From a virus, in the IMG/VR virus record IMGVR_UViG_3300044991_001618, positions 48,964-112,963 of that record: a stretch of DNA of 64,000 nt; one strand, written 5' to 3'. The number at the start of each line of letters is the position of its first letter. Positions within the stretch are counted from its first letter, which is position 1. Under the pieces are notes generated by a model. The model ran no database searches. It had not been told where the DNA came from and was given only the letters and a program-made list of their open reading frames with translations. Positions 7,815 to 54,402 of the stretch are shown one piece after another. The translations under genes were made by a program, and so were the position numbers.

Positions 7815-8465
7815 TTATAATCCACCATTTATTTTTAAATTACCACCACAAAAATATTCATTTTCTATAATATAATCAATAGTATTATATAATTCTTCAG
7901 TTTTACCAAACCTTTTTAAACCTATTTTTTCTTTTGCAATATCTTGATATTTAGATTCAACTCTATCACCCATTCCACCATCCCAATATCCTAGTTGTAT
8001 TGTATTACATGTTATTCCATGTTTTATATTTTCTTTATTAGCAACCGAAATTAATCTATCCAAAAAAGCTTTTGATGCACAATATAATGAATTTTTAGGT
8101 ACATTCATTTCAGAAAAAATTGAAGATATTGATATCACTCTACCCCATTTATTTTTAATCATATTTGGTAAGCATCCAGAAAGTATATTTATATTACCTT
8201 TTATGTTTACATTCAACATATCATCAATTTCTTTATAATCATCCTCAGTAATACTATTTAAAAATACATCATATTTTTTACCTGACATATTTAAAACAAT
8301 ATCTACTTGATTTTCATTAAAAAAATTATTTACTTCTTTTGGGTTTGTTACATCAACGTCTTTACTACTTAAATCAATTACTTCATATTTTTTTTTAAGA
8401 AATGGTACTAATTTAGTTCCAAGACCACCTTTTCCACCAAAAACAACTATTTTTTTCATAATCAT
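7815..8465 (-). CDS. SDR oxidoreductase, FabG-like
   Basis: GGKGGLG, GRVISISS, YCASK. Confidence 0.85.
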   Translation of the reverse strand: MIMKKIVVFGGKGGLGTKLVPFLKKKYEVIDLSSKDVDVTNPKEVNNFFNENQVDIVLNMSGKKYDVFLNSITEDDYKEIDDMLNVNIKGNINILSGCLPNMIKNKWGRVISISSIFSEMNVPKNSLYCASKAFLDRLISVANKENIKHGITCNTIQLGYWDGGMGDRVESKYQDIAKEKIGLKRFGKTEELYNTIDYIIENEYFCGGNLKINGGL

Positions 8466-9406
8466 TGATTATACTTAATTATCATTGAACCCCAAGCCCA
8501 ACCAGCACCAACAGCTGATAATAATATATTATCACCATAAGTTATTTCACCTGATTTAATTGCATCATCTAAAGCAATTGGTATTGATGCACCTGCAATA
8601 TTACCATATTTATCCATTATTGTTTTTACTTTATGCATTGGTAAACCAACATCTTTTGCAACCAACTTTAATATATTAATACTAGGTTGATGTGGTACTA
8701 ACATATTAATATCATCAGCTGTTAAATTAGCTTCTTTTAAAACACTTTTAATTGATTCAGGTAATACTTTAGTTGCTTGTTCCCAAACTTCTTTGCCTAC
8801 CATTTCAAATGGTTTATCTAATGGCATTCTAAAACCTGTCATACCAGTACCTTTACCATTAGACAATATTTCACTTACCATCCAACTATTATCTGAGGGT
8901 CCTAAAACTACAGCTCCAGCACCATCGCCAAAAAATACACAATGACGATTATTTAAGTTAGTATGTTTAGAATATGTTTCACTAGCAACAATTAATATAT
9001 TTTTATATATACCAGTACTAATTAATGTTGATGCAAATGACATAGCATAGACAAACCCAGCACAAACTGCATTAATATCAAATGATGGTACATTTTTTTC
9101 AATATCTAATTTATTATGTAAAACACATGCAGTTGATGGTGATATTTGATCAGGACTAGAAGTAACTACTATAATTAAATCTAAATCTTCTTTATTTATG
9201 TTAGCCGATTCTAAAGCATTTATGGCAGCATAGTAAGCTAAATCAGAAGTTTTCTCATCAGCAATAAATCTTCTTTCTAAAATACCTAATTTTTGTTCAA
9301 CCCATTCTGGTGTTGTGTCTATGTTTTTACATAGTTCACTATTACTCACAACCCTATTAGGTAGATAAGACCCAGTACCAATTATTGTTACTTTATCACT
9401 CTTCAT
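8462..9406 (-). CDS. fabH: 3-oxoacyl-ACP synthase III family (FabH-like)
   Basis: GTGSYLP, AVCAGF (Cys), FGDGAGA, VPHQ (His), YGN (Asn), GAGWAWG. Confidence 0.9.
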   Translation of the reverse strand: MKSDKVTIIGTGSYLPNRVVSNSELCKNIDTTPEWVEQKLGILERRFIADEKTSDLAYYAAINALESANINKEDLDLIIVVTSSPDQISPSTACVLHNKLDIEKNVPSFDINAVCAGFVYAMSFASTLISTGIYKNILIVASETYSKHTNLNNRHCVFFGDGAGAVVLGPSDNSWMVSEILSNGKGTGMTGFRMPLDKPFEMVGKEVWEQATKVLPESIKSVLKEANLTADDINMLVPHQPSINILKLVAKDVGLPMHKVKTIMDKYGNIAGASIPIALDDAIKSGEITYGDNILLSAVGAGWAWGSMIIKYNQ

Positions 9407-35529: not shown

Positions 35530-36240
35530 ATGATTATTAAAAAACAAATATCAAGGATAAAAGAAATTATTGAATCTTTTACTAAAAACTCATATGATTT
35601 ACCAGAAAAACCAGATGAAGTGTTATTCAATGATTTTTGGCTTTCCCAATTGGATGTAGAAGGTGATTATGTAAAGTTGTATCATTTTGGTGAGCCAGAT
35701 TTGGAATACCTAGATCCATCTCATTTTGGTAAAAATTCATATACAAGTTCAGAGAAATGGTGGGGAAAAAATAGGTTATTTTTTTACACAAATTTAAAAC
35801 AAAAAGAAAGGATTGTTTCAGGTACACTATATACTGCAACTATAGATTTAAAAGATTTGTATCCATTCAATGCTGACCCCCTAAACTTATATGACATTGC
35901 TGTTGAAATGTATTCTAATGAAAATATTCCATACCAAAGGCAAGTATTATATATGTCAAATATGCTAATAGATATGGGGTATAAGGGAATGATATATAAA
36001 TGGCACGATGAAAGTTTGTTGGCAGTAATATGGGAAAAGGTAAAAAACATAAAATCAGAGCAAGAGAAGAAAGAATATAAGTTACCAACAAGCGATATGG
36101 TTGGTTATCCAATAGAAAATGGATTAAGCACCAATCCAAGATTATCACATGAGGAAAAAATAGAGGGAGTAGTTAAGAAAATGATTCACAGTAACTACCC
36201 CCCAGATTTTATTCAAAATTACATTGACAGTTTTAAGTGA
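35530..36240 (+). CDS. Hypothetical protein, possible ADP-ribosyltransferase-like fold
   Basis: LYH, LFFYT, LY...I...LY, GYKGMIY pattern resembles ART-PolyVal. Confidence 0.4.
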   Translation: MIIKKQISRIKEIIESFTKNSYDLPEKPDEVLFNDFWLSQLDVEGDYVKLYHFGEPDLEYLDPSHFGKNSYTSSEKWWGKNRLFFYTNLKQKERIVSGTLYTATIDLKDLYPFNADPLNLYDIAVEMYSNENIPYQRQVLYMSNMLIDMGYKGMIYKWHDESLLAVIWEKVKNIKSEQEKKEYKLPTSDMVGYPIENGLSTNPRLSHEEKIEGVVKKMIHSNYPPDFIQNYIDSFK

Positions 36241-37355
36241 TATTTTAATTTATCTGCCATATCAAGTTTTTCCCAAGGCATAGTATCATTACCAAAATGA
36301 CCTTTTGCTGAATTGTAATAGATTGGGGTTTTTAAATTAAAATGTTTTATAACATCAGATGGGGTTGTTGGGAATATGTTTTTAACCACATTAATTAACA
36401 AATCATCATTAAATTTACCATATGTATTTATGCTTAGTGAGGCTGGTGTTGAAACACCAATCATATAAGCAATTTCAACACTACACTTATCAGCAACACC
36501 ACTTGCAACAATATTCTTTGCAATATACCTTGCCAAATATGCGCCAGTTCTATCCACTTTGCTTGGGTCTTTACCACTAAAAGCACCACCCCCAACTGGA
36601 CAATATGGTCCGTATTGGTCAACCACAATCTTTCTTCCTGTTACACCGCAATCAGCAACTGGTCCACCTACATTCCAAGAACCAGCAGGGTTAATGACAA
36701 TTGAGGTGTTATCATCAATCAAGGCAAAAATATCAGCATCCAAATTCATTTCATTATACCGAATCCCTTTCATAATAATTTGCCTTACATTAGATAGGGT
36801 TAAATCTTCGCTATGCATTGTTGATACCAATATGGTATGAATTCTTTTGCTATTGTCATCATACTCAATTGTTGTTTGTGTTTTAATATCAGGACCGAAT
36901 CCTATATTATTATATACATAATCAACCAACTTCTTTGATACATACATACCAATTGGCATATAGGTTTTTGTTTCGTTTGTTGCATAGCCAGTCATAAAAC
37001 CTTGGTCACCAGCACCCAAAGAATCTTCGCTATATTTTAAAACAGCACTATTTATTTCTCTACTTTGCTGTCCAATCAAATTTATGATTGTAATATTTTT
37101 GTAATAAAACCCATGACCTGGGTTAGTGTAACCAATTTCTTTTATGGTATTTTTAATAACCTCTTCATAATTGATTCTATGTGTGCTGGATATTTCACCC
37201 CCTAACACAACACAATTGTCTTTAACAAGAGTTTCAACAGCAACCTTTGCGTCTGGGTCAAGAGTAAGGTAAGCATCAAGTATTGCGTCTGAAATTTGGT
37301 CAGCAACCTTATCTGGATGCCCAATGGAAACGCTTTCAGCGGTAATTAATTTCAT
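36219..37355 (-). CDS. metK: S-adenosylmethionine synthetase
   Basis: ESVSIGHPDK, GAGDQG, TGRKIVVD.YG, GGGAFSGKDPSKVDR; start placed at MKLITAES. Confidence 0.96.
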   Translation of the reverse strand: MKLITAESVSIGHPDKVADQISDAILDAYLTLDPDAKVAVETLVKDNCVVLGGEISSTHRINYEEVIKNTIKEIGYTNPGHGFYYKNITIINLIGQQSREINSAVLKYSEDSLGAGDQGFMTGYATNETKTYMPIGMYVSKKLVDYVYNNIGFGPDIKTQTTIEYDDNSKRIHTILVSTMHSEDLTLSNVRQIIMKGIRYNEMNLDADIFALIDDNTSIVINPAGSWNVGGPVADCGVTGRKIVVDQYGPYCPVGGGAFSGKDPSKVDRTGAYLARYIAKNIVASGVADKCSVEIAYMIGVSTPASLSINTYGKFNDDLLINVVKNIFPTTPSDVIKHFNLKTPIYYNSAKGHFGNDTMPWEKLDMADKLKYHLKLSM

Positions 37356-37389
37356 ATTTATATATTTTAGAGTTAAACAATTCACTTTG

Positions 37390-37937: not shown

Positions 37938-40900
37938 TTAGTTAAAGATGTATCTCAATCCCAATTGCGCTTGCCAAGCATTACCTACACTAATTGTTTT
38001 AACAAAAGTTTTGTCTAATAGTTGTGTTGAACCATCAACAACTCTTGTTGCCATTCTGTATGTTGGAACACCATCAGCAGAAACAGATGCTACTGTTAAT
38101 GGACTTGCTGTACCGAAACTACCAGATGTTGTAGAATATCCAACACCCCAAGCATTATTCAATATATTTCCAAAGTTAAGAATATCTGCTCTAAATTGCA
38201 AGGTATTTCTTTTTCCTTTTACATTAACATATACTTCTTGAACCGCAGATAAATCAACTCTTGTTAACCAAGGGAAGTATCCACCATTTCTTTCAGCGTA
38301 TGTTCCTTTGCGTGATGATAAATATTCATCATTTGAAATTAGATTGTTTAACGCCTCTTGTTGTTGTGCTGGGGTGAAAGTCTTTCCACCAGCAGTAAGT
38401 GTTGCAAAAGTGATTTCTGTTGCATTATTTGGCACATAAATGAGGTCGTTAATTTGTCCATCACCATTTAAGTCATTTCCATAAATGTAACTGATTTTAC
38501 TACCACTTGCAGATGTTGCACCTAATGTTAATTCAGTTGAACCTCCAAATTTACCGCCATAGTTAATTCTATAATTAACATATCCAATAAATCTATGACG
38601 TAAATCATTATCTGTGAATGATGGGGCTAAGAAATTTTGGCCACCAACACCAGGTGCATTTGCCTGAACTGTACTACCTACTGATTGTAGATCTGTTGAC
38701 CTTGCGTTTGTATAGCCAACCATACCACCTAAACCATTAACCGCTGGTTTCTCAATCTTTGTAGTAAGAGCATAAGAATAACCCCTATCTGTATTTGTTA
38801 ATAAGAAAGCATTTGAAATTGTTGGATTTAAGAATCTTGCTATTGCAACTGTATTTGCAGCACCAGAACCTGAACTTGTAACACCTGATGCTGGATAACG
38901 TGGTCTTCCATCTGACAAGAATCTATCAGCACTTTTTAAATTTGCGTCAATATAACGTAGTCCAGATAATGTTTTACCATAAATACCTTCAACTGTTCCG
39001 ATTAATCCAAATGGTAATTTTTGGTCAACTGCAATATTTGATTTCCAAACTGATGGGTATTTTAAATCCTCACTTGATGCGTTAATAACATAAGGTGGTA
39101 ATTTTGTAATATCAGTTGTTGTTGGTGCAAATCTGCTTGGGTCAGTTGTGAATGGGTATGCAGTTGTATTTGTTACGTTAATAACCGCTGTATTAACACC
39201 ATTATTACCCAGTTGATTAGATACCAAAACTTGTGGAACTCTTGAAACAAAGATACCCGTTCCACCCCTAACTTGGGTTGTTTGGTCACCATTAACATCA
39301 TAATTAAATCCAATTCTTGGGGATAACAATAATGTTGGTTTTGGGAATGCACTTGTGTTAATTTTTGTTGGTTGACCATTTTTATCTCTGAATGTTAAAC
39401 CACCAACAACTGGATTATAAAAATCTTCCGCAGTTGAATTGTCATACATAACAACATCCCCACGCAAACCAACTGTTAATTTGACTAAATCAGTTAATTC
39501 ATACTCATCTTGTGCATAAGCACTAAATGTGGAAACTTTTAAAGATTGTAATGGTTCAATACCCCCAGGTAATAATGAGTATCTTAGATTGTAACGGTTT
39601 AGAGTTACTGGTGATACTGGATTACTTGGGTTGTTTTTAAATTCTAATGCTGCTTTTTTGAAATCATCAATAGAATTATAAACATAAACACCATTTGATG
39701 CTGGGAAGAAAACGTTATTTGATTGGAAATATTCATAAGCCAAACCAAATGTGAAGTAATGCTTACCAGATGACAAATTAAAATTGTTTGTTAAATTTAA
39801 AGTACTGTAATTAAGTTTGTTGTTTGGTGTGAAGGGGTCAAAGCCAACAGTTGTATAGGTTGTACCATCTTTAAGAATATCTATTGTTGGAAATAAATCT
39901 GTACGATATCTTCTATCTTCAATTTGTTTATTGAATGTAGCAATAAAGTTGTTTGACTTCTTTGAAGAAAGAATTGAGTTTAATTCAAATGCAACAGAAC
40001 GAGTATTATCTTGGATGATATATCCAGTGTTTTCCCCAGAGATAGCAAATGCTGAATTTTGACGATTACCATTACCAGCTGTATTGCTACTGTTTGAACT
40101 ACTAATAACTTGTTCTGATTCTGAATTATGATGAGAATAACGAAGAGATGCTTTGTGCTTTCTACTAATGTTATAATCTAAACGAACAAGTCCTTTTGTA
40201 CTTTTAACATCATTATTAAAGTTATCAAGTGAACCAAGGTCATAATTAAAGTTTGTTTTCATAAATGAGGACAAATCTTTTAAATCACTTTCTGTTACAC
40301 GAGATACGTTACCAGTAGCACCTGGCTTGTTTGTTTGCCAACTTAATGCTGGATTTGTTCCAGTAAATTGTTCAGCATTAACAAAAATAAATAATTTGTT
40401 TTTGATGATTGGTGCACCAATTCTAAAACCAGTTGTTTTTTCATCTAGGAAGATTGGTGGTAGTTTGATACCATTTACAGTTTTACCTACTAAATCACTT
40501 GACCTAAATAATCTGTAAAATGAACCAGAAATATCATTTGTACCAGAACGAGTTACTGCATTAACACCTGCACCAACAAAGCCAGATTGTCTAACATCAA
40601 AGGGGGCAATATTTAATTGTACCTCTTCAACAGCATCAAGAGAAATTGCGGTTGTTCCTGTTCTACCACCAGCAGCAGCAGATGACCCAAGACCAAATCC
40701 ATTATTAAATACTGAACCATCAATTGTGAAATTGTTAAAACGGCTGTCTTGCCCACCAAATGAACGACCATTACCATAAGCATTATACTTTGTAATGTCA
40801 TCAATTGTTCTACCAATTGTTGGTAAACTATTAATTGTACTTGAACTAAATTGAGTTGATGCCCCAGTTCTTTGACTAGAAAAAATGGCATTTTTGTTTG

Positions 40901-41282
40901 CCGTAATTGTTACCCCTTGCAAATCATAAGATGATTCAACTAAGGAAAAATTCAATGTTTTGGTTGTTCCCAAATTTAATATAACATTGGATTGGGTTTT
41001 TGTGGCATATCCAACATAACTAACTGTTATGTTATAAGGGCCACCAACACGCATCCCTGGAATTCTATATGTACCATCAATATCAGTTGATGTACCATAA
41101 CTTGTTCCAGATGGTAAGTGAACAGCCTCAATGGTTGCACCAACCAAAACCTCACCTTTTGGGTCACTTGTTGGTACTGAAGGTGTTGTTACCACACCAG
41201 TTATTGCTGAAGTTGTTACTTGAGCATAACTCATACTAAACGTCATAAATGTTAATAATAACGTTTTAAAAATGTTTTTCAT
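37938..41282 (-). CDS. TonB-dependent outer-membrane receptor (Oar-like, N-terminal carboxypeptidase-regulatory-like domain)
   Basis: Signal peptide, [25 protein letters not shown], plug ([30 protein letters not shown]), [10 protein letters not shown]-terminal QLGLRYIF. Confidence 0.92.
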
Positions 41283-46060: not shown

Positions 46061-46762
46061 TTATTCTTTTGGCTCATTATTATTTGCATTATCATATAAT
46101 TCAAGAACAAAATCCCAATTTATATAATTCCAGAAGTTATGTATATACTCATCTCTTTTGTTTTGGTATTTGAGATAATAGGCATGTTCCCATAAATCCA
46201 ATCCCAATATTGGAAATCCACCACCTTTAATGACATTCATAAGGGGATTATCTTGGTTTGGGGTGGTGATAATTTTTAATGTATTATTTTTTGTTGCAAC
46301 AAGCCAGACCCATCCTGATCCAAAATGGCTTTTTGCCTTTTCTTCAAATTTTGTTTTAAATGAATTAATTGAGCCAAAACTTTTTATTATTTTATCTTTT
46401 AATTCTTTTGGGATATTCTTTTTGGTTGGTGATAACATATTCCAAAACAAAGCGTGATTAAATGCTCCACCTGCATTATTTCTAATTGTTTTGTTGAATT
46501 TGCTTATATTTGTTATTATCTGTTTTAAATCATAATTTGATTTATTATCTTTTAATGCTTTATTCAATTTATCAACATAACCTTTATAATGTTTATTATA
46601 ATGAATATCCATTGTTTTCTCATCAATAAAAGGTTTTAATGAGGCATACGAATAAGGGAGTTTTTCAATTCCAACCTTTTTCATTTCATTAAGTAAAAAA
46701 TTAACATTATCTTTGTATATCCTTGATATTATTTCTTCTTTGATTGTTTCAAGTATTTTCAT
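46061..46762 (-). CDS. sodA: Mn/Fe superoxide dismutase (Mn-type signature) with N-terminal extension
   Basis: LPYSY..L.P.ID, HYNKH, NNAGG.FNH, FGSGW.WL, NQDNP, DLWEHAYY. Confidence 0.93.
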   Translation of the reverse strand: MKILETIKEEIISRIYKDNVNFLLNEMKKVGIEKLPYSYASLKPFIDEKTMDIHYNKHYKGYVDKLNKALKDNKSNYDLKQIITNISKFNKTIRNNAGGAFNHALFWNMLSPTKKNIPKELKDKIIKSFGSINSFKTKFEEKAKSHFGSGWVWLVATKNNTLKIITTPNQDNPLMNVIKGGGFPILGLDLWEHAYYLKYQNKRDEYIHNFWNYINWDFVLELYDNANNNEPKE

Positions 46763-46770
46763 AAATTATT

Positions 46771-46787
46771 ATATTTATAATAAATAT
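46771..46787. promoter_or_regulatory. Two opposed ATATTTAT motifs (putative late promoters) in the 32-bp gap between SOD and the LRR array
   Basis: ATATTTAT on + at 46771-46778 and on - at 46780-46787; same motif precedes the sheath and neck genes. Confidence 0.5.
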
Positions 46788-46794
46788 TTGTATA

Positions 46795-47280
46795 ATGGAT
46801 AATAGCACAATAAACAACATACTAAACTTTTTGGTAACTAATGAAGGTAAAAAATTACCAGAAAAATGGGTTCAATTTAAATTGGAAAATAATATACCAT
46901 TAACAAAAGAAGAATTGAAAGTTGGGGGTAATTTGGATTTATATGGCTCAAAAATAGAATCATTACCAGAAGAGTTATATGTTGCAGGAACATTGGTTTT
47001 ATCAAATTGTAAAAATTTAACATCTTTACCAAAAAGATTAAAAGTTGGGGGGGATTTGCATTTAGACTATACAAATATAACATCATTACCAGAAGGATTA
47101 TATGTTGGTAGGCATTTATATTTAATAATGTGCAAAAATTTAACATCATTACCAAAAGGATTGAAAGTTGATGGTGGAGTAAATATAAAACTCACAAATT
47201 TAATTAAATACACTAAAGAGGAATTAAGAGAAATGATTGAGCCAGATGGTTATATAACAGGAAAAATAATTAGAAGTTAA
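46795..47280 (+). CDS. LRR array gene 1 (about 4 repeats)
   Basis: 21/22-aa repeats LPxGLxVGGxLxLxxxxIxS with N- and C-caps. Confidence 0.88.
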   Translation: MDNSTINNILNFLVTNEGKKLPEKWVQFKLENNIPLTKEELKVGGNLDLYGSKIESLPEELYVAGTLVLSNCKNLTSLPKRLKVGGDLHLDYTNITSLPEGLYVGRHLYLIMCKNLTSLPKGLKVDGGVNIKLTNLIKYTKEELREMIEPDGYITGKIIRS

Positions 47281-47927
47281 TGGAAAAAGAAACACTAAAA
47301 AACATATTTAAATTCATTGAAGAAAAGGGTGAGCATAGAACACCATTTTTATGGAAATGGAAAAATAATATACCATTAACAGAAGAAGACTTAAATGTTA
47401 ATGGTAATTTGGATTTAAGGCATTCAAATATAACCTCATTACCAGAAGGATTAAAAGTTTGGGGTAATTTGATTTTAGAGTATTCAAAAATAGCCTCATT
47501 ACCAGAAGGATTGAAAGTTAAAGGTAGTTTGATTTTAAGTGCTACCAAAATAACATCATTACCAAAAGGATTGGAAGTTGGTGGTAGTATATTTTTGAAT
47601 GAGAGCCTCATAAAGGCATTACCAGAAGGATTGAAAGTTAAAGGTAGTTTGGATTTGAGTAATACCAAAATAACATCATTACCAAATGGATTACAAGTTA
47701 AAGGTCAGTTGAGTTTGTTTGGTACAAAAATAAAATCATTACCAGAAGGATTGGAAGTTGGTGGTTGTATATATTTGTCTTTCAGCACCATAAAGACATT
47801 ACCAAAAGGATTAAAAGTTGGAGGTACTTTGCAAATAGGTCAGACTCGATTAACAAGATATTCAGATGAGGAATTAATGAAAATGATTGAGCCAGGATTT
47901 ATAACAAATAGTATAATAAGATTATAA
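47280..47927 (+). CDS. LRR array gene 2 (about 7 repeats)
   Basis: Same repeat; TAATG overlap with gene 1. Confidence 0.88.
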   Translation: MEKETLKNIFKFIEEKGEHRTPFLWKWKNNIPLTEEDLNVNGNLDLRHSNITSLPEGLKVWGNLILEYSKIASLPEGLKVKGSLILSATKITSLPKGLEVGGSIFLNESLIKALPEGLKVKGSLDLSNTKITSLPNGLQVKGQLSLFGTKIKSLPEGLEVGGCIYLSFSTIKTLPKGLKVGGTLQIGQTRLTRYSDEELMKMIEPGFITNSIIRL

Positions 47928-48646
47928 TGGATAATAACACAATAAAAAAAATATTAGATTTTCTTGAAGAAAAAGAAAACAAAAAACATTCAGAAAGAGA
48001 TAATCTTGTTTGGAAATTAAGATTTGGATACCCCCTAACAAAAGAAGATTTGAATATTAAGGATACCTTGTATTTAAATAATACAAATATAACCTCATTA
48101 CCAGAAGGATTGAAAGTTGGTAAGAGTTTGGATTTAAGAGTATCAAATATAACCTCATTACCAGAACGATTGAAAGTTGGTTGGAATTTGAATTTAAATA
48201 ATACAAAAATAACCTCATTACCAGAAGGATTGAAAGTTGGTAGGAATTTGTATTTAGAAAATTGCAAAAGTTTAACCTCATTACCAGAAGGATTGGAAGT
48301 TGGGGGTGATTTGGATTTAAGTGGTTCAGGAATAGAAACATTACCAAAAGATTTGAAAGTTGAGGGCAACTTAATTTTAATAGGATCAAAAATAACCTCA
48401 CTACCAGAAGGATTTAATGTTGTTGGTGTTTTGTGTCTTTATAATACAGAAATAGAATCATTACCAAAAGGATTAAAAGTTGGGGTTCAGTTGGATTTAA
48501 GGTTTACAAAAATAACCTCATTACCAAGAGGTTTGGAAGTTGGTGGTATTTTAAGAATAGACCACACAGACCTAGACAATTATTCAGATGATGATTTAAG
48601 ACAAATGGTTAAACCTGGATTTATAAAAGGTGAAATATATAGGTAA
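47927..48646 (+). CDS. LRR array gene 3 (about 8 repeats)
   Basis: Same repeat; first 108 bp identical to gene 6. Confidence 0.88.
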   Translation: MDNNTIKKILDFLEEKENKKHSERDNLVWKLRFGYPLTKEDLNIKDTLYLNNTNITSLPEGLKVGKSLDLRVSNITSLPERLKVGWNLNLNNTKITSLPEGLKVGRNLYLENCKSLTSLPEGLEVGGDLDLSGSGIETLPKDLKVEGNLILIGSKITSLPEGFNVVGVLCLYNTEIESLPKGLKVGVQLDLRFTKITSLPRGLEVGGILRIDHTDLDNYSDDDLRQMVKPGFIKGEIYR

Positions 48647-49113
48647 TGGATAATAACACAATAAAAAACATATTTAAATTCCTTGAAGATGAAGGAGAAC
48701 ATAGAGCACCTTTTATGTGGAAATGGAAAAATAATATACCATTAACAGAAGAAGACTTAAATGTTGAAAGTGATTTGAATTTCTATAGATTAGAAATAAA
48801 ATCATTACCAAAAGGATTAAAAATCCATGGTCATTTGGGTTTATATAAAACAAATATAACTTCATTACCAAAAGGCTTGGAAGTTGGGGGCGATTTGAAT
48901 TTAAATGAAACAAAAATAAAATCATTACCAAAAGGATTGAAAGTTGGTGGCAATTTATATTTAACATATTGTGGAAAATTAACTTCATTACCAGAAGGGT
49001 TAAAAGTTGGTGGTGATTTGTATATACATGCCACACCATTAACAAAATATTTAGATGATGATTTAAGACAAATGGTTAAACCTGGATTTATAAAAGGAAT
49101 AATATATAGGTAA
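48646..49113 (+). CDS. LRR array gene 4 (about 4 repeats)
   Basis: Same repeat; N-cap shared with gene 2, C-cap shared with gene 3. Confidence 0.88.
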   Translation: MDNNTIKNIFKFLEDEGEHRAPFMWKWKNNIPLTEEDLNVESDLNFYRLEIKSLPKGLKIHGHLGLYKTNITSLPKGLEVGGDLNLNETKIKSLPKGLKVGGNLYLTYCGKLTSLPEGLKVGGDLYIHATPLTKYLDDDLRQMVKPGFIKGIIYR

Positions 49114-49778
49114 TGGATAATAACACAATAAACAAGATACTAAACTTTTTGGTAACTAATGAAGGTAAGAAATTACCAGGAACATGGATTAAATTTAAAT
49201 TGGGAAATAATATACCATTAACAAAAGAAGAATTAAATGTTAAGGGTAATTTGAATTTGAGTGATTCACAAATAACCCAATTACCAGAAGGATTGAAAGT
49301 TGGGGGTGATTTGTATTTAAATAGAACAAATATTAAATCATTACCAGAAGGATTAAAGGTTGGTGGTAATTTATCATTGCTAAAATGTAAAAATTTAACT
49401 TTATTACCAAAAGGATTAGACGTTGGGGGTTGGTTGGATTTAAGAGGAACAAATATAATCTCATTACCAAAAGATTTGCAAGTTGGGGGTGGTTTGGATT
49501 TGGAAGGCACAAATATAAAACAACTCCCAAAAGATTTATATGTTAGTGGTAAATTGGATTTATCATTCACAAAAATAACATCACTACCAGAAGGATTATA
49601 TGTTGGCAAGAATTTATTTTTAAATAATTGTTATGATTTAAAATCATTACCAAAAGGATTGAAAGTTGGTGGTGGAGTAAATATAACTGATGCAAGTTTA
49701 ACTAAATACACTGAAGAGGAATTAAGGAAAATGATTGAACCAGGATTTATAAAAGGAGATATAATAAGATATGGATAA
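49113..49778 (+). CDS. LRR array gene 5 (about 7 repeats)
   Basis: Same repeat; N-cap type shared with gene 1. Confidence 0.88.
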   Translation: MDNNTINKILNFLVTNEGKKLPGTWIKFKLGNNIPLTKEELNVKGNLNLSDSQITQLPEGLKVGGDLYLNRTNIKSLPEGLKVGGNLSLLKCKNLTLLPKGLDVGGWLDLRGTNIISLPKDLQVGGGLDLEGTNIKQLPKDLYVSGKLDLSFTKITSLPEGLYVGKNLFLNNCYDLKSLPKGLKVGGGVNITDASLTKYTEEELRKMIEPGFIKGDIIRYG

Positions 49779-50190
49779 TAACACAATAAAAAAAATATTA
49801 GATTTTCTTGAAGAAAAAGAAAACAAAAAACATTCAGAAAGAGATAATCTTGTTTGGAAATTAAGATTTGGATACCCCTTAACAAAAGAAGAGTTAAATC
49901 AAAAAGGTAATTTGCATTTATCATTTACAAAAATTACATCCTTACCAAAAGGATTGAAAGTTGGTGGGTTTTTATATTTATTTATGTGTAAACATTTAAC
50001 ATCTTTACCAGAAGGATTGAAAGTTGGAGGTATTTTGAGTTTGAATCATTCAAGTATAACCTCATTGCCAAAAGGGTTAGAAGTTGGGGGTGACTTACAG
50101 ATTGAAGGTACATCCTTAACAAAATATTCAAATGAGGAATTAAGGAAAATGATTGAGCCAGGATTTATAAAAGGAGATATAATAAGATAA
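49771..50190 (+). CDS. LRR array gene 6 (about 3 repeats)
   Basis: Same repeat; N-cap of gene 3, C-cap like gene 5. Confidence 0.88.
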   Translation: MDNNTIKKILDFLEEKENKKHSERDNLVWKLRFGYPLTKEELNQKGNLHLSFTKITSLPKGLKVGGFLYLFMCKHLTSLPEGLKVGGILSLNHSSITSLPKGLEVGGDLQIEGTSLTKYSNEELRKMIEPGFIKGDIIR

Positions 50191-50192
50191 CA

Positions 50193-50735
50193 ATGGATAA
50201 TAACACACTAAAAAACATATTTAAATTCCTTAAAAATAAAGAAGGGAAAAAACATAGACAACAAGACACATTATTATGGAAGTTAATATTTAATGAGCCA
50301 TTAACAAAGGAGGAATTAACTATTGATGGTGATTTGACCGTATCAAATACAATAATAACTTCATTACCAGAAGGATTAAAAGTTTCTGGTGGTTTGGATA
50401 TATCTTACACAAAAATAACCTCATTACCAAAAGATTTAAATGTTAAGGGTGATTTATATTTAAGAGATTCAAAAATAACCTCATTGCCAGAAGGTTTGAA
50501 AGTTGGTGGTAATTTAAATTTAGGTTGGACAAAAATGGCATCATTACCAGAAGGATTAAAAGTTGTGGGTGATTTGGATTTATATTGGACAGACATAACC
50601 TCATTACCAAAAGGTTTGAAAGTTGGTGGTGATTTGGATATAAGAGAAACAGAATTAATAAGATATTCAGATGATGAATTAAGAGAAATGATTAAACCAG
50701 GTTTTATAGAAGGAGATATAATAAGATATGGATAA
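50193..50735 (+). CDS. LRR array gene 7 (about 5 repeats)
   Basis: Same repeat and caps. Confidence 0.88.
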   Translation: MDNNTLKNIFKFLKNKEGKKHRQQDTLLWKLIFNEPLTKEELTIDGDLTVSNTIITSLPEGLKVSGGLDISYTKITSLPKDLNVKGDLYLRDSKITSLPEGLKVGGNLNLGWTKMASLPEGLKVVGDLDLYWTDITSLPKGLKVGGDLDIRETELIRYSDDELREMIKPGFIEGDIIRYG

Positions 50736-51180
50736 TAGCACATTGAAAAACATATTTAAATTCCTTGAAGATAAGGAGGGATATAATGCCCCATTCATAT
50801 GGAAATGGAAAAATAATGAACCCTTAACAGAAGAAGATTTGAATGTTAAAGGTGATTTGGATTTATCAGAAAATGAAGAAATAGAATCATTACCAGAAGG
50901 ATTAAAAATTGAAGGTAATTTACTTTTATATGATTCCTCTGTTGAATTACCAAAAGGATTAGAGGTTGGTGGTAATTTACATATGACTCATAGTATATAT
51001 GATTTACCAAAAGGATTGAAAGTTGGCGGTGATTTATATCTATCAGGTATTGGACACCGTTTTGAAGATATTGAGGACAGAGTAAAGAAAATTATTTACC
51101 CTGGGTTTATAAAAGGTATGATACTTGCTGATGACTATGATCCATATGATGACTATAACGCATTTGATAATGATGATTGA
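50728..51180 (+). CDS. LRR array gene 8 (about 3 repeats, acidic tail)
   Basis: Shortened repeats; C-terminal DDYDPYDDYNAFDNDD. Confidence 0.85.
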   Translation: MDNSTLKNIFKFLEDKEGYNAPFIWKWKNNEPLTEEDLNVKGDLDLSENEEIESLPEGLKIEGNLLLYDSSVELPKGLEVGGNLHMTHSIYDLPKGLKVGGDLYLSGIGHRFEDIEDRVKKIIYPGFIKGMILADDYDPYDDYNAFDNDD

Positions 51181-51197
51181 TTTAAATTAAAAATATA

Positions 51198-51863
51198 ATG
51201 GAAAAAGAACAACTAAAAAACATACTTAATTTCCTTGAAGAAAAAGAGAATAAAAATAAACCATTTGTTTGGAAATTAATGAATAATGAAACATTTACAG
51301 ATGATGAATTAAACATTAAAGGTGATTTGGATTTATTTGAAGAAAATATAACTTACATACCAGAAGGATTAAAAGTAGAGGGTGATTTGAATTTAAAAAG
51401 TTGTAAAAGATTAAAATCTTTACCAGATAATTTATATGTTGGCGGTGAGTTGAATTTGGAAGGTACAAGTATAAAACAAATCCCAAAAGGTTTATATGTT
51501 GGTGGTGATTTTAATTTAGTCGCTTTAAAAATAAAATCATTACCAAAAGACTTAAATGTTGATGGTGGTTTGGATTTGGCTTATTGTACAGACTTGACTT
51601 CACTACCTAACAATTTGAAAGTTGGTGGCTATTTAAGTCTATACAATACAAAAATAACCTCATTACCAGAAGGACTACAAGTTGGTTGGGATTTGTATTT
51701 AGATTACACAATGATAAACACATTACCAAAAGGCTTACAAGTTGATCGTGATTTATCTATTACAAATAGCCCATTAGCAAAACTTTCAGATGAAACCATA
51801 TTAAGTATGATAGAACCAGATGGTTATATAAATAGGGATATAATAAGAGAAGATAATGGATAA
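51198..51863 (+). CDS. LRR array gene 9 (about 7 repeats)
   Basis: Same repeat, more diverged. Confidence 0.88.
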   Translation: MEKEQLKNILNFLEEKENKNKPFVWKLMNNETFTDDELNIKGDLDLFEENITYIPEGLKVEGDLNLKSCKRLKSLPDNLYVGGELNLEGTSIKQIPKGLYVGGDFNLVALKIKSLPKDLNVDGGLDLAYCTDLTSLPNNLKVGGYLSLYNTKITSLPEGLQVGWDLYLDYTMINTLPKGLQVDRDLSITNSPLAKLSDETILSMIEPDGYINRDIIREDNG

Positions 51864-52326
51864 AACAACAATTAAAAGAATAATGGATTTCCTAAAATCA
51901 GAGGAAGATAAATCATCATTAAAATGGATATTATTGCATAACATTGAGTCAATGCCTGAAAAGTATTATCACAAGGGAGCATTAGAGTTGTATGGTGAAT
52001 TGATAACTAAATTGCCAAAAATTTTAGAAGTCACTGAACAATTAGATTTAAGTTATTCAACAATAACAGAATTACCAGAAAAACTTATAGTTGGTGATGA
52101 TTTATATTTATATGATTGCAAGGATTTAAAATATTTACCAGATAACTTATATGTTGGGGGAGAATTACATCTTCAGAAGTCTGGAATAAAAGAATTTCCC
52201 CAAGGAATGATTGTAAACGGTACTATTTGGTTAAGGAATTCACCATTAGGTCGTTATAATGTAAAAGAAATACAAGCAAAATTAGAGGAAAGAAATTGCA
52301 AAGTACATGGAAGTATAATGGTTTAA
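51856..52326 (+). CDS. LRR array gene 10 (about 4 repeats, most diverged)
   Basis: ITELPEKLIVGDDLYL, YLPDNLYVGGELHL. Confidence 0.82.
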   Translation: MDKTTIKRIMDFLKSEEDKSSLKWILLHNIESMPEKYYHKGALELYGELITKLPKILEVTEQLDLSYSTITELPEKLIVGDDLYLYDCKDLKYLPDNLYVGGELHLQKSGIKEFPQGMIVNGTIWLRNSPLGRYNVKEIQAKLEERNCKVHGSIMV

Positions 52327-52332
52327 TGAGTG

Positions 52333-52563
52333 CTAATGGCACTCATTTTCAAAAAACTCATTATCAAATACAAAACTATCATCATTCTCACCAATGAACT
52401 TGGTAAAATCTTCTAGCAATTCTATTTTGGAATTTAGTACTTCCATTTTCTGTGCAAGAATTGCACCGTTTTTTTCAAATTCACCCATATCATCCAGAAT
52501 TTCTTTGTGCTTCTCAATGATAAAATTCTGTAAATCTGAGGTTTTAATTACGTGTAATTTCAT
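52333..52563 (-). CDS. Hypothetical small protein
   Basis: Start placed at MKLHVIK; TACCTTTG (TAnnTTTG) at 52603-52610 upstream. Confidence 0.65.
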   Translation of the reverse strand: MKLHVIKTSDLQNFIIEKHKEILDDMGEFEKNGAILAQKMEVLNSKIELLEDFTKFIGENDDSFVFDNEFFENECH

Positions 52564-52635: not shown

Positions 52636-54402
52636 TTATTTTGTTTTTATTTTCATATTTAATATCTGGGTTAAAATATCTTCTGTAGTATCAGTTTCAA
52701 ATAAGTTATCCCCAAGAACAGTTGATATTATTTTTTTCTTTCTATCCAACATATCATATATAATTCCCTCAATGGTGTTTTCAAATATGGGATATAATAC
52801 AGAAACTGAATTCTTTTGTCCAATTCTATATGCCCTATCTTCTGCTTGACTATGATCTGCTGGAACAAAGGATAAATCATTAAAGATAACAACATTTGCA
52901 CTTGTCAATGTAATACCAACGCCAGCTGCTTTTATATTGCCAACAAAAACCTTTATCTTATCATTTGTTTGAAATTCATCAACACTCTCTTGTCTTTGTT
53001 TTGCTGTTGAACTACCATCTAATTTAACAGCAATTTTATTAAAATGTTCATATATTTTATTTAATGAGTTTGTGAAATTTGAGAAAACAATAATCTTTTT
53101 CTCTTGCTCCAATGTATTCTCAATAAATTCTATAGTACTCTTAATTTTTTCATCTGCAATTATTTGTCTAACTTTCATTAGTTTTGAAAATTGAACACTC
53201 AAAGATTTTGATTCTTTTGGGTTATTTTTAACCCATTCAAAATACTCCCCCATAACATCCTCATATTCTTTTGATTTTAATCTTAAATAAATTGGTGTTA
53301 TTATTTTTTCTGGTAAATCTAATACATTCTCTTTTAGTCGCCTTAATAATAATGGTGACGTTCTTTCCCTTAACTCATCCAAATTTGACGCACCGCTCAC
53401 ATTCCATACCTTATTCATTCCAACACTAAACTGATATCCAGCACAGTATCTTTTAACATAGGCCATCCAGTTTTTTGATACGGGGCTATCAACCAATGAT
53501 AATAAATTAAAATAATCAATCGGTCTTGATGTTAATGGCGTTCCAGTCAATAACCATATTTTATTAATATCTTTGCAAATATCATTTATCAATTTTGTTC
53601 TCGATGCTTGGGGGGATTTAATATAATGACATTCATCAATTATAACCAAATCAAATTTTGATTTCTGAATTAAAGATTCTTCTTTAGTTTTTAATGAATG
53701 AAAGTTTTTAATAATATCATAATTAATGATTACAAAGTCAGCAGAATCTTCATATTTTTTTCCCTCACAAATATAAATTTCTTTGTTTGAATAATTTTCA
53801 ATTTCTCTTTTCCAATTTTGTTTTAAACTTGCTGGACAAATAATTAAAGTTTTACTTGGTTTAGCTTCAATTGAGGCAATAATTGCTGAACTAGTTTTAC
53901 CCAAACCCATATCATCTGCTAATATGAATTTATCATTCTCAAGCAATTTTATAATTGCTTCTTTTTGATGTTCAAAGGGTATTCTATGGGAATACTTTTC
54001 ATAATCAATAACAACATTTTTATTTGTCTTATCCACAATAATTCCATCTTTTGGAATCCAATAAAGGGTTAATCTATCATTATCAAAAAATCTACCAAGA
54101 ATGTGGTATGATTTTTCCTTCTCAACCAATAACTTTTCAATCCATATTTTTTGGGGAACACTTGTTAATAATTTATCATCAGCAATCATTTTTGCAAAAT
54201 AGATATCAAGGTCAACCCACTTTCTGGCAATCTTTGGTCTTGTCTGGTTAAATAATGAAATGTATTCAACTTGGCTTGGAGTCAAATAAAAATTTGGGTT
54301 TTCCAAAGCCATATTCCTTAAACCATTTAAATAATCATTTTGACCATTATATGATTTTAATAACAACAACGCCTCGTCCTCACTTATCTTTTTTTTGTTC
54401 AT
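52636..54402 (-). CDS. SNF2-family (SMARCAL1/HARP-like) helicase/ATPase
   Basis: LADDMGLGKT, CPASL..NW, DECH, LTGTP, RRLK, GVGITLT, QAEDRAYRIGQ. Confidence 0.92.
   Translation of the reverse strand: MNKKKISEDEALLLLKSYNGQNDYLNGLRNMALENPNFYLTPSQVEYISLFNQTRPKIARKWVDLDIYFAKMIADDKLLTSVPQKIWIEKLLVEKEKSYHILGRFFDNDRLTLYWIPKDGIIVDKTNKNVVIDYEKYSHRIPFEHQKEAIIKLLENDKFILADDMGLGKTSSAIIASIEAKPSKTLIICPASLKQNWKREIENYSNKEIYICEGKKYEDSADFVIINYDIIKNFHSLKTKEESLIQKSKFDLVIIDECHYIKSPQASRTKLINDICKDINKIWLLTGTPLTSRPIDYFNLLSLVDSPVSKNWMAYVKRYCAGYQFSVGMNKVWNVSGASNLDELRERTSPLLLRRLKENVLDLPEKIITPIYLRLKSKEYEDVMGEYFEWVKNNPKESKSLSVQFSKLMKVRQIIADEKIKSTIEFIENTLEQEKKIIVFSNFTNSLNKIYEHFNKIAVKLDGSSTAKQRQESVDEFQTNDKIKVFVGNIKAAGVGITLTSANVVIFNDLSFVPADHSQAEDRAYRIGQKNSVSVLYPIFENTIEGIIYDMLDRKKKIISTVLGDNLFETDTTEDILTQILNMKIKTK

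What the first reader, a model, noticed from the sequence alone, without database searches (positions are those of the whole stretch)
47280..50190. Mosaic cap sharing points to ongoing recombinational shuffling inside the LRR array
Seen: genes 3 and 6 share 108 identical bp at their 5' ends (47927-48034 = 49771-49878) but have different repeats and C-caps. Genes 2 and 4 share 48 identical bp of N-cap (47352-47399 = 48718-48765). Genes 3 and 4 share a 45-bp C-cap block (48586-48630 = 49053-49097) and near identity across the following gene junction. Genes 1 and 5 share another N-cap type, and genes 5 and 6 share a C-cap. N-cap and C-cap relationships are therefore discordant. Inference: homologous recombination or gene conversion through the conserved repeat cores makes new cap/repeat combinations. 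No reverse transcriptase or site-specific recombinase is visible in the window.
Basis: partly seen in the sequence, partly recalled or inferred. Interest (0 to 1): 0.75.

Follow-up and report, generated by a model that had tools for sequence, protein, structure and literature searches.

The report
Recombining LRR gene array in phage
An uncultured freshwater giant phage carries ten neighbouring genes for small leucine-rich-repeat binding proteins that are patchworks of one another, and related phage strains show the patchwork still being re-cut by ordinary homologous recombination; what the proteins bind is unknown.

Summary
Observation confirmed. The three identical blocks (108, 48 and 45 bp) sit exactly where stated. 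The 108-bp block is the longest exact match among all 33 paralogs of this family in the 113-kb contig, a fragment of a ~300-kb jumbo myophage.

- No single tree fits both N-caps and C-caps (AU tests).
- A relative (L020) differs from the window by a 1,844-bp indel bounded exactly by the two copies of the 108-bp block.
- Another relative (L014) has 2 genes where the window has 10, with the crossover in the first ~45 nt of the N-cap.
- Against its ortholog in L021, gene 4's C-cap carries a 65-85-bp conversion tract copied from or to gene 3, running across the stop/start junction.
- Independent metagenome contigs reproduce the window's gene order, and one shows a strain-level breakpoint inside gene 7.
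- No reverse transcriptase, tyrosine integrase or resolvase is present, even in a 90%-complete relative.

Refinement: most mapped breakpoints lie in the caps and gene junctions, not the repeat cores.

The proteins fold as capped 20-residue LRR solenoids with hypervariable concave-face positions. Their function is unknown. No publication was found. This scan has noted similar phage LRR arrays before on other DNA.

The parts
46795..47280 (+). D1, LRR gene 1 (161 aa; N-cap type shared with D5)
   Evidence: ORF list; repeat parsing; N tree (D1,D5) 100/100
47280..47927 (+). D2, LRR gene 2 (215 aa, 7 repeats); ortholog in L020 at 95% nt
   Evidence: intragenic two-repeat duplication r2/r4 at 91%
47927..48646 (+). 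D3, LRR gene 3 (239 aa, 8 repeats); chimera with a D6-type N-cap joined to an unrelated body
   Evidence: AF2 model pLDDT 93.9
48646..49113 (+). D4, LRR gene 4 (155 aa); ortholog in L021
49113..49778 (+). D5, LRR gene 5 (221 aa); ortholog in L021 at 97%
49771..50190 (+). D6, LRR gene 6 (139 aa); ortholog in L020 at 97%, where it directly follows the D2 ortholog
50193..50735 (+). D7, LRR gene 7 (180 aa); strain-level recombination breakpoint near 50430
50728..51180 (+). D8, LRR gene 8 (150 aa, degenerate repeats, acidic C-terminal tail)
51198..51863 (+). D9, LRR gene 9 (221 aa); conserved anchor gene present in L011, L014, L020 and L021 (94-97%)
51856..52326 (+). D10, most divergent family member (156 aa); conserved anchor next to the helicase side
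47927..48034 (+). 108-bp identical N-cap block, copy 1 (start of D3)
49771..49878 (+). 108-bp identical N-cap block, copy 2 (start of D6). The 1,844 bp from copy 1 to copy 2 are absent from relative L020.
47352..47399 (+). 48-bp N-cap block in D2, identical to 48718-48765 in D4
48718..48765 (+). 48-bp N-cap block in D4
48581..48665 (+). D3 C-cap end, stop/start junction and first codons of D4: partner of the conversion tract (contains the 45-bp block 48586-48630)
49048..49132 (+). Gene-conversion tract (at most 85 bp, at least 49059-49123) in the D4 C-cap and D4/D5 junction. It matches D3 and not D4's own ortholog, while both sides match the ortholog.
   Evidence: three-way comparison
49470..49479 (+). 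Cluster of 4 substitutions in 10 bp between the window and a 99.6%-identical independent contig (L097). In L097 LPKDLQV reads as the family consensus LPEGLKV: candidate micro-conversion.
46061..46762 (-). Fe/Mn superoxide dismutase gene, conserved left flank of the variable slot
   Evidence: Pfam; flank conservation
52636..54402 (-). SNF2-type helicase gene, conserved right flank, used to fetch orthologous loci
   Evidence: PHROGs
52452..52466 (+). Only terminator-like hairpin downstream of the array; none lies inside it on the + strand

Best explanation
The stretch is part of a ten-gene, tightly packed array (46795-52326). Stops overlap starts, and there is no + strand terminator-like site inside, so it is probably one operon. 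The genes encode small signal-less capped LRR proteins.

The array is one of four clusters of a family of at least 33 paralogs, about 15% of a 113-kb fragment of an uncultured ~300-kb jumbo myophage. The host is probably a freshwater Saprospiraceae bacterium (inferred).

The family evolves by general homologous recombination among its own members.
- Unequal crossing-over between misaligned paralogs, within one genome or between co-replicating genomes, deletes, duplicates and fuses genes.
- Short-tract gene conversion (tens to about 110 bp) copies cap segments and gene junctions between neighbours.
- Exchange starts in stretches that are conserved at the DNA level: mainly the N-cap 5' end, the N-cap body and the C-cap/junction, and sometimes the LP-x-G-L-K-V repeat core.
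- No dedicated diversifying enzyme is involved.

The outcome is new N-cap/repeat/C-cap combinations and a gene number in this slot that ranges from 0 to at least 11 among related phages.

Shown: the mosaic structure, the breakpoints, the conversion tract, the copy-number variation and the LRR fold.

Inferred: that recombination happens during phage replication using phage or host general recombination functions, and that the products are a repertoire of cytoplasmic binders whose variable concave face recognises different targets.
For: Exact blocks and their significance.

Synonymous divergence between D3 and D6 is 0 in the first 108 nt. It is near saturation in the next 63 nt of the N-cap, and C-cap dS is 1.21.

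N-cap and C-cap trees conflict. (C3,C5) in the N tree stands against (C5,C6) and (B2,C3) in the C tree. (D3,D6) at 100/100 in the N tree stands against D6 with D2 in the C tree. No shared topology fits.

Relatives keep both flanks at 86-95% nt identity but carry 10, 7, 2 or 0 genes in the slot.

The L020 junction equals the window's D2 3' end, then the 108-bp block, then the D6 body at 100%.

L014 joins the D1 start to D9 within the first ~45 nt.

D4's C-cap tract equals D3 and not its L021 ortholog. Smaller tracts occur in D2 and D6.

L021 has a 137-aa chimera with a D9-type C-terminal half, switching at a repeat core.

L016 (identical to L017 from a second sample) and L018 share 100%-identical gene blocks in a different order. 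One L018 gene is the L016 g8 body joined to the L016 g1 tail.

Independent contigs L097 (99.6% over D1-D5) and L096 confirm the window's order. L096 has 0 differences in 861 bp, then 37 in 346 bp inside D7.

No RVT_1, Phage_integrase or Resolvase hits in the contig, in a 90%-complete relative or in L020's contig.

Fold: AF2 pLDDT 93.9. Foldseek and PDB profile hits are to 20-residue bacterial LRRs.

Variable positions 10, 12, 14, 15 and 17 of the repeat match the canonical concave-face x positions.
Against: All sequences are short-read metagenome assemblies. An assembler can skip a loop between two identical 108-bp repeats, so the L020 'deletion' alone could be a collapse.

Single-clade AU tests on the 126-159-column cap alignments are mostly non-significant: only (D2,D6) is rejected by the N data at p 0.004, and (C3,C5) by the C data at p 0.051. 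Those clades were also chosen after seeing the trees.

The direction of each event (deletion or insertion, which copy was donor) is not resolved.

'Ongoing' rests on strain and relative comparisons, not on observed events.

No recombinase of the phage itself was identified above threshold (only a weak RecA-like hit in relatives), and the contig is only 36% complete.

The binder function is entirely inferred. Pooled pN/pS at hypervariable positions among orthologs is 0.93, against 0.35 for the scaffold. That is elevated but not shown to exceed 1, and the pairs are not independent.
Confidence: 0.85

Rival explanations
1. Simple serial tandem duplication followed by independent divergence, with no exchange between copies. 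The identical blocks would be regions under strong constraint.
For: Some pairs are concordant in both caps and look like plain whole-gene duplicates: D1-D5, A1-A5, A2-A4. Most single-clade AU tests cannot reject concordance.
Against: Synonymous sites are identical in the blocks and near saturation next to them. Both caps reject a common tree. Tracts cross stop/start junctions. Ortholog outgroups show that D4's C-cap matches its paralog and not its ortholog. Indels between relatives end exactly in the shared blocks.
Confidence: 0.03
2. Assembly artefact: the mosaics and copy-number differences are chimeric or collapsed joins made by short-read metagenome assemblers in a repetitive region that holds several strains.
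For: All data are metagenome contigs. In sample Ga0164293 the contigs break next to the 108-bp repeat: L097 ends at 49688 and L096 starts at 49569. That shows the repeat troubles assemblers. A loop between identical repeats can be skipped, which would mimic the L020 arrangement.
Against: A shared identical block must exist in the reads, whichever way paths are joined. L097 reproduces D1-D5, including the D2/D3 junction, at 99.6%, and L096 reproduces the D5/D6 junction. L016 and L017 from two different samples have identical arrays. The L014 and L021 junctions and the D4 conversion tract lie in sequence with too little exact identity for a graph mis-join.
Confidence: 0.07
3. A programmed diversification system: a diversity-generating retroelement, a site-specific recombinase shuffling cassettes, or an expression-site/silent-cassette system as in bacterial antigenic variation.
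For: The capped modular architecture with hypervariable positions resembles the targets of such systems. Two thirds of this genome are unseen.
Against: No RVT_1, Phage_integrase or Resolvase hits in the contig or in a 90%-complete relative. All 33 copies are complete ORFs with start codon and both caps, so none is a silent partial cassette. Breakpoints fall at varied positions in conserved DNA, not at one defined site.
Confidence: 0.04
4. The exchange is mainly between different co-infecting phage genomes (horizontal cassette swapping in a shared gene pool) rather than within one genome's arrays. This is a variant of the main explanation and differs only in where the partners sit.
For: L016 and L018 share gene blocks at 100% identity while their flanks are only about 80-98% identical. 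L096 is identical to the window for 861 bp and then 10% diverged. Repeat units at 93-95% identity occur between clusters 7-13 kb apart, such as B1.r5/r6 and C2.r2.
Against: The D3/D6 block, the D3-D4 tract and the intragenic repeat duplications have both partners in the same genome. The two routes are not exclusive.
Confidence: 0.35

Closest known systems
Hyperplastic regions of T4-type phages with PeSL-mediated modular shuffling (Arbiol et al. 2010, PMC2839356; Comeau et al. 2014, PMC4122927)
   Same: A slot of non-core genes between conserved core genes, whose content differs by insertions, deletions and replacements between closely related phages. The cause is homologous recombination between short repeated sequences.
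   Different: There the repeats are intergenic promoter/stem-loop cassettes flanking unrelated ORFans. Here the genes abut or overlap, the recombining sequences are the coding caps and repeats of one paralogous family, and chimeric proteins result.
Variable lymphocyte receptors of lampreys and hagfish (established knowledge; PDB 2o6s, 2o6q and 2o6r appear among the hits)
   Same: Capped LRR modules (N-cap, variable number of repeats, C-cap) with diversity on the concave face. Mosaics arise by copying through short conserved stretches.
   Different: VLR assembly is somatic, acts on an incomplete germline gene flanked by partial cassettes, and depends on cytidine deaminases. Here every copy is a complete inherited gene and the change is evolutionary, not developmental.
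Birth-and-death and concerted evolution of tandem LRR gene clusters such as plant NLR/R-gene clusters (established knowledge)
   Same: Tandem LRR paralogs with unequal crossing-over, gene conversion, chimeras, copy-number variation between close relatives and variable ligand-facing residues.
   Different: Those are host immune receptors with signalling domains in eukaryotic genomes. These are about 130-250-aa LRR-only proteins in a virus.
Vibrio polar-flagellar-motor LRR protein, PDB 8z5u chain 0
   Same: Same 20-residue repeat class, L-P-x-G-L-x-V-x-G-x-L-x-L-x-x-[TS]-x-I. Profile E 9.4e-33. Foldseek TM 0.84 by target, rmsd 2.1.
   Different: The match covers the repeats only (profile positions 43-197). 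The phage N-cap and C-cap are not shared. That protein is a single bacterial gene, not an array.
LRR domains of the IpaH/SspH/SlrP effector family (PDB 7ya8, 4nkh, 4puf)
   Same: Short bacterial-type 20-residue LRR solenoid used as a substrate-recognition module.
   Different: Those are fused to an E3 ligase domain and secreted by type III systems. The phage proteins have no second domain and no secretion signal.
Expanded repeat-protein families and 'genomic accordions' of large DNA viruses of eukaryotes (established knowledge)
   Same: Lineage-specific expansion of a binder-type repeat family in a large virus, with recombination-driven copy-number change.
   Different: A different virus realm and different repeat types. 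Nothing here shows transient amplification under selection.

Membership tests
Leucine-rich repeat (LRR) superfamily | Tandem repeats with the L-x-x-L-x-L-x-x-(N/T/C)-x-L core | tested here: met
   Of 123 parsed units, 88 have 20 residues and 28 have 21. Invariant or near-invariant: L1, P2, L5, V7, L11, L13, T/S16 (C16 in the 21-mers) and I18 (L19 in the 21-mers).
Leucine-rich repeat (LRR) superfamily | Curved solenoid fold with capping elements | tested here: met
   AF2 model of D3: pLDDT 93.9, pTM 0.86, helical N- and C-caps. Foldseek hits are all LRR proteins.
Leucine-rich repeat (LRR) superfamily | Pfam LRR models above gathering score | tested here: not met
   LRR_1, LRR_4 and LRR_8 score 12-19 bits, below their cut-offs of 20.6-27. 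Three of the ten proteins have no hit at all. Current models under-detect the family.
20-residue bacterial LRR class of PDB 8z5u chain 0 | Significant sequence-profile and structural match over the repeats | tested here: met
   E 9.4e-33, 116.7 bits. TM 0.84 by target.
20-residue bacterial LRR class of PDB 8z5u chain 0 | Shared terminal caps, meaning full-length homology | tested here: not met
   The match covers profile positions 43-197 only. An N-cap-only profile finds 160 representative clusters, always starting at residue 1 of small proteins.
Diversity-generating retroelement target | Reverse transcriptase in the genome | tested here: not met
   No RVT_1 hit in the contig, in a 90%-complete relative or in L020's contig. 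Positive controls responded.
Diversity-generating retroelement target | Template repeat / variable repeat pair with adenine-specific differences | not tested
   No specific scan was made. The differences between copies are not restricted to one base (alignments).
VLR-type or antigenic-variation-type cassette system | One incomplete or expressed gene plus silent partial cassettes | tested here: not met
   All 33 copies are complete ORFs with start codon, N-cap, repeats and C-cap.
Site-specific recombinase shufflon | Tyrosine or serine recombinase encoded with the array | tested here: not met
   No Phage_integrase or Resolvase hit in G000, G001 or G003. The only resolvase seen is part of an IS607-like element that replaces the array in relative L012.
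T4-type hyperplastic region | Variable accessory genes between conserved core genes in close relatives | tested here: met
   The SOD-side and D9-D10-helicase-side flanks are 86-95% identical. The slot holds 10, 7, 2 or 0 family genes.
T4-type hyperplastic region | Recombination at intergenic promoter/stem-loop cassettes (PeSLs) | tested here: not met
   The genes overlap or abut. There is no + strand terminator-like hairpin inside the array. Breakpoints map inside coding caps.

The most novel reading that the evidence does not exclude
The jumbo-phage lineage keeps an inherited, recombination-shuffled repertoire of some 35-50 LRR binders. This would be a viral, germline counterpart of VLR- or NLR-type repertoires. 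Individual members would neutralise or hijack different host proteins, for example defence systems of Saprospiraceae, possibly after being packaged and injected. Cassette exchange within the phage population would continually create new specificities.
Probability: 0.3. Interest if true: 0.85.

Novelty: new variant of a known kind. Interest (0 to 1): 0.6.

Why it matters
If the reading holds, a whole clade of large freshwater phages spends roughly a seventh of its genome on one family of small binding proteins. It renews that family by plain homologous recombination rather than by a special enzyme.

The model is tractable. Conserved flanks allow PCR across the slot. Natural variants have 0, 2, 7 and 10 genes. 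It could show how viruses build and turn over binder repertoires, and it could be a source of compact, naturally diversified LRR scaffolds.

The family (more than 2,000 proteins, all 'hypothetical') is missed by current Pfam thresholds. It therefore goes unannotated in viral metagenomes.

The recombination mechanism itself is ordinary. The unknown is what the proteins bind.

Tried and rejected
- Single-clade AU tests on cap alignments: too little signal in 126-159 columns. Replaced by whole-topology tests and three-way ortholog/paralog comparisons.
- blastn of the array against isolated phage genomes: no match. The PolB has only about 23% identical relatives among cultured phages, so no cultured relative is available.
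- PHROGs gave one weak unnamed hit for D3 and none for the other two family proteins tried.
- The listing of cluster members gave no names or accessions.
Independent support for the arrangement came instead from an exact-pattern scan of metagenome contigs.
- megablast at 93% identity or more between L016 and L018 gave only one hit. A sliding-window painting was used instead.
- Positive selection: pooled pN/pS at hypervariable positions is 0.93, so no claim of pN/pS above 1 is made.
The L-x-E motif is not universal among the paralogs. It was not testable further.
- Literature searches for phage LRR arrays found nothing relevant. The jumbo-phage comparative review PMC7824862 does not mention LRRs.
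Full report
**1. What is there**

The finding lies in a run of ten same-strand genes (D1-D10, 46795-52326). Their stops overlap or abut the next start. There is no + strand terminator-like site until 52452-52466, downstream of D10.

Each gene encodes a 139-239-aa protein with three parts:
- a conserved N-terminal segment of about 53-57 residues;
- 2-8 repeats of 20 residues, L-P-E-G-L-K-V-G-G-x-L-x-L-x-x-[TS]-x-I-x-S, or of 21 residues in a Cys variant;
- a conserved C-terminal segment of about 40 residues.

The window is the right-hand 64 kb of an IMG/VR contig of 112,963 bp that CheckV rates 36% complete. The contig encodes a family B DNA polymerase, an SNF2 helicase, a 1,047-aa tail sheath and a head-tail adaptor-like protein. 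It is therefore a fragment of a jumbo myophage of about 300 kb.

The contig's TonB-dependent receptor gene is 85% identical to one in a pond Saprospiraceae MAG. This suggests a freshwater Saprospiraceae host, by inference only.

The family is much larger than the finding implies. There are 33 complete paralogs in four clusters: 7, 3, 13 and 10 genes. They sum to about 17.6 kb, roughly 15% of the contig.

A 270-kb, 90%-complete relative gives 65 profile matches in at least eight clusters. I read this as about 45 genes. More distant relatives of the same phage group, with about 62% helicase identity, give 0-2 weak matches. This is a lineage-specific expansion.

**2. The observation**

All three exact blocks are as stated. 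The 108-bp block is the longest exact match in the family.

In a permutation test on polymorphic columns, D3-D6 and D2-D4 are significant after correction for all 496 pairs (global p<0.0005). The 45-bp D3-D4 block alone is not (global p 0.14). That block does extend across the stop/start junction, about 80 nt with 3 mismatches.

D1 and D5 share both caps, so they are concordant. D5 and D6 share only the end of the C-cap.

**3. Are the caps discordant?**

- N-cap and C-cap nucleotide identity matrices are essentially uncorrelated (Mantel rho 0.15, p 0.10).
- The N-cap tree has well-supported pairs (D3,D6), (D1,D5), (C3,C5), (B1,B3) and (C10,C11).
- The C-cap tree has (A1,A5), (A2,A4), (A3,A6), (C5,C6) and (B2,C3).
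- Tests of single clades on these short alignments are mostly not significant.
- Whole-topology AU tests are clear. N-cap data reject the C-cap tree (delta lnL 286, p 2e-4) and the concatenated tree (p 0.014). C-cap data reject the N-cap tree (delta lnL 245) and the concatenated tree (p 7e-5).
- Between D3 and D6 there is no difference of any kind in the first 108 nt. All 8.2 synonymous differences of the N-cap fall in its remaining 63 nt, and C-cap dS is 1.21. Different segments of one gene pair therefore have different ages. Protein-level constraint cannot produce that.

**4. Direct evidence from related phages**

Using the flanking helicase I fetched orthologous loci. Both flanks are conserved at 86-95% nt identity: PolB to SOD on one side, and D9, D10, a small ORF and the helicase on the other. 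The slot between them differs.

| Locus | Content of the slot |
|---|---|
| Window | D1-D10 |
| L020 | two novel genes, D2 ortholog (95%), D6 ortholog (97%), a 175-aa gene with D7-like C-cap, D9, D10 |
| L021 (contig end) | D4, D5 (97%), a 137-aa chimera with a D9-type C-terminal half, D9, D10 |
| L011 (contig end) | D7 (93%), a novel 202-aa gene, D9, D10 |
| L014 | D9 and D10 only |
| L012 | no LRR gene; an IS607-like element, resolvase-type TnpA plus TnpB |

The L020 D2/D6 junction matches the window's D2 3' end, then the shared 108-bp block, then the D6 body at 100% and not D3. The two genomes thus differ by a 1,844-bp indel whose ends are the two copies of the 108-bp block. That is what a crossover between those repeats would leave. 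The direction, deletion or insertion, is unresolved.

L014 matches the SOD/D1 junction through the first 11 nt of D1, and matches D9 from about nt 45 on. This is a 4.4-kb difference with the crossover in the N-cap 5' end.

Compared with its L021 ortholog, D4 is 98-100% identical from nt 76 to about 375. Its C-cap is different:
- between 49048 and 49132 at most (49059-49123 at least), 13 sites match D3 against the ortholog;
- on both sides of that tract the sequence matches the ortholog against D3.

This is a gene-conversion tract that crosses the D4 stop and the D5 start. Smaller tracts of the same kind occur in D2 (nt 79-83, matching D4) and in the D6 C-cap (matching D5).

A second, more distant pair behaves the same way. 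L016 is identical to L017, which comes from another sample. Compared with L018, gene blocks are 100% identical but ordered differently, one L016 gene is missing from L018, and one L018 gene is the L016 g8 body joined to the L016 g1 tail.

**5. Is it an assembly artefact?**

An exact-pattern scan of metagenome contigs found two independent contigs from sample Ga0164293.
- L097 matches the window at 99.6% over 46370-49688, which covers D1 to D5 and the D2/D3 junction.
- L096 matches 49569-50777, which covers the D5/D6 junction.

The window's order is therefore reproduced. A shared identical block must in any case exist in the reads. The L020 arrangement alone could be a collapsed loop. The L014, L021 and D4 cases could not, because their junctions lack long exact identity.

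The strain comparisons add to the case:
- L097 differs from the window at 13 sites, all within the LRR genes, 11 of them non-synonymous.
- Four of these fall within 10 bp (49470-49479). In L097 the D5 repeat core reads as the family consensus there, which is a candidate micro-conversion.
- L096 is identical to the window for 861 bp and then differs at 37 sites in 346 bp. The switch lies inside D7.

**6. Mechanism**

No reverse transcriptase, tyrosine integrase or resolvase is encoded in the contig, in the 90%-complete relative or in L020's contig. Controls were positive.

All copies are complete genes, so none is a silent cassette. Breakpoints fall at different places in conserved DNA: the N-cap start, the N-cap body, the C-cap/junction, one repeat core, and intragenic repeat duplications such as D2 r2/r4.

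The best-supported mechanism is general homologous recombination. Unequal crossing-over accounts for gain, loss and chimeras. Short-tract conversion accounts for local homogenisation. It is not resolved whether the partners are arrays in one genome or in co-infecting relatives. Blocks that are 100% identical between contigs whose flanks are only about 80-98% identical argue that exchange between genomes contributes.

**7. What the proteins are**

- The AlphaFold2 model of D3 is confident: pLDDT 93.9, pTM 0.86. It shows helical N- and C-caps around a solenoid.
- Foldseek and a PDB profile search return only LRR proteins. The closest is a Vibrio polar-flagellar-motor LRR protein (8z5u chain 0; E 9.4e-33; repeats only). 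Next come IpaH/SspH/SlrP LRR domains and VLRs.
- Pfam LRR models stay below threshold.
- The most variable repeat positions (10, 12, 14, 15, 17) correspond to the canonical concave-face x positions.
- Among orthologs, pooled pN/pS is 0.93 at these positions, 0.35 on the scaffold and 0.77 in the caps. This suggests relaxed or diversifying selection but does not prove it.
- More than 2,000 homologs exist, all called 'hypothetical'. Look-alike clusters in the ESM Atlas are 97-100% viral.
- The N-cap alone defines 160 representative clusters, always starting at residue 1.
- Function is unknown. A cytoplasmic binder repertoire is the most likely reading, by inference.

**8. Comparison with what is known, and novelty**

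The process is that of tandem multigene families (birth-and-death, concerted evolution) and of T4-type hyperplastic regions (PMC2839356).

It resembles VLR assembly in its modules, but not in timing or enzymology.

I found no publication on such phage LRR arrays. Earlier notes of this scan describe similar arrays, and one recombining array, in other genomes.

Verdict: observation confirmed and interpretation supported. This is a new variant of a known kind of evolutionary process acting on an undescribed phage protein family.

Noticed in passing
L012:12309-14083 (+): In one relative (helicase 91% identical) the whole LRR slot between the small ORF/helicase and SOD is occupied by an IS607-like element: a 191-aa resolvase-type TnpA and a 399-aa TnpB (OrfB_IS605 plus Cas12f1-like TNB). 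No LRR gene remains there.
   Followed up: partly
window 37938-41282 (-): The phage-borne 1,113-aa TonB-dependent receptor is 85% identical to one in a pond Saprospiraceae MAG and 69-74% identical to Haliscomenobacter and other Saprospiraceae copies. This points to a recent host-derived gene and to the likely host group.
   Followed up: partly
L006:186-752 (= G000:C1:36605-37171, - strand; outside the window): An unrelated small gene (lysine-rich, Cys-containing C-terminus) is inserted between two LRR genes (C9 and C10) of the 13-gene cluster C. It is the only non-family gene inside any of the four clusters.
   Followed up: no
window 50728-51180; also paralogs A1, A5 and C13 (contig 8295-8798, 10193-10717, 34524-35090): A subset of paralogs carries an extra acidic C-terminal tail (runs of D/E/Y) after the C-cap. 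D8 also has degenerate 19-residue repeats.
   Followed up: no
window 46795-52326 and the other three clusters: Two repeat subtypes are intermixed within genes: a 20-residue Thr/Ser type and a 21-residue Cys type (x-x-C-K-x-L-T-S). Of 123 parsed units, 88 are 20-mers and 28 are 21-mers.
   Followed up: partly
window 46370-49688 vs L097: Between two 99.6%-identical strains all 13 differences fall in the LRR genes. None falls in the 425 bp of SOD and intergenic DNA also covered, and 11 of the 13 change the amino acid.
   Followed up: partly
window 36219-37385 (-): A full-length S-adenosylmethionine synthetase (metK) gene is present in the phage contig, with all three Pfam domains.
   Followed up: no
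window 46763-46794: The first codons of the genes are cluster-specific rather than cap-type-specific. Eight of the ten genes of this array begin MD(N/K), while clusters A and C mostly begin MEKE. The 5' ~15-75 nt therefore seem to be homogenised locally. The 32-nt A+T-rich gap between SOD and D1 is the only plausible shared promoter region.
   Followed up: partly
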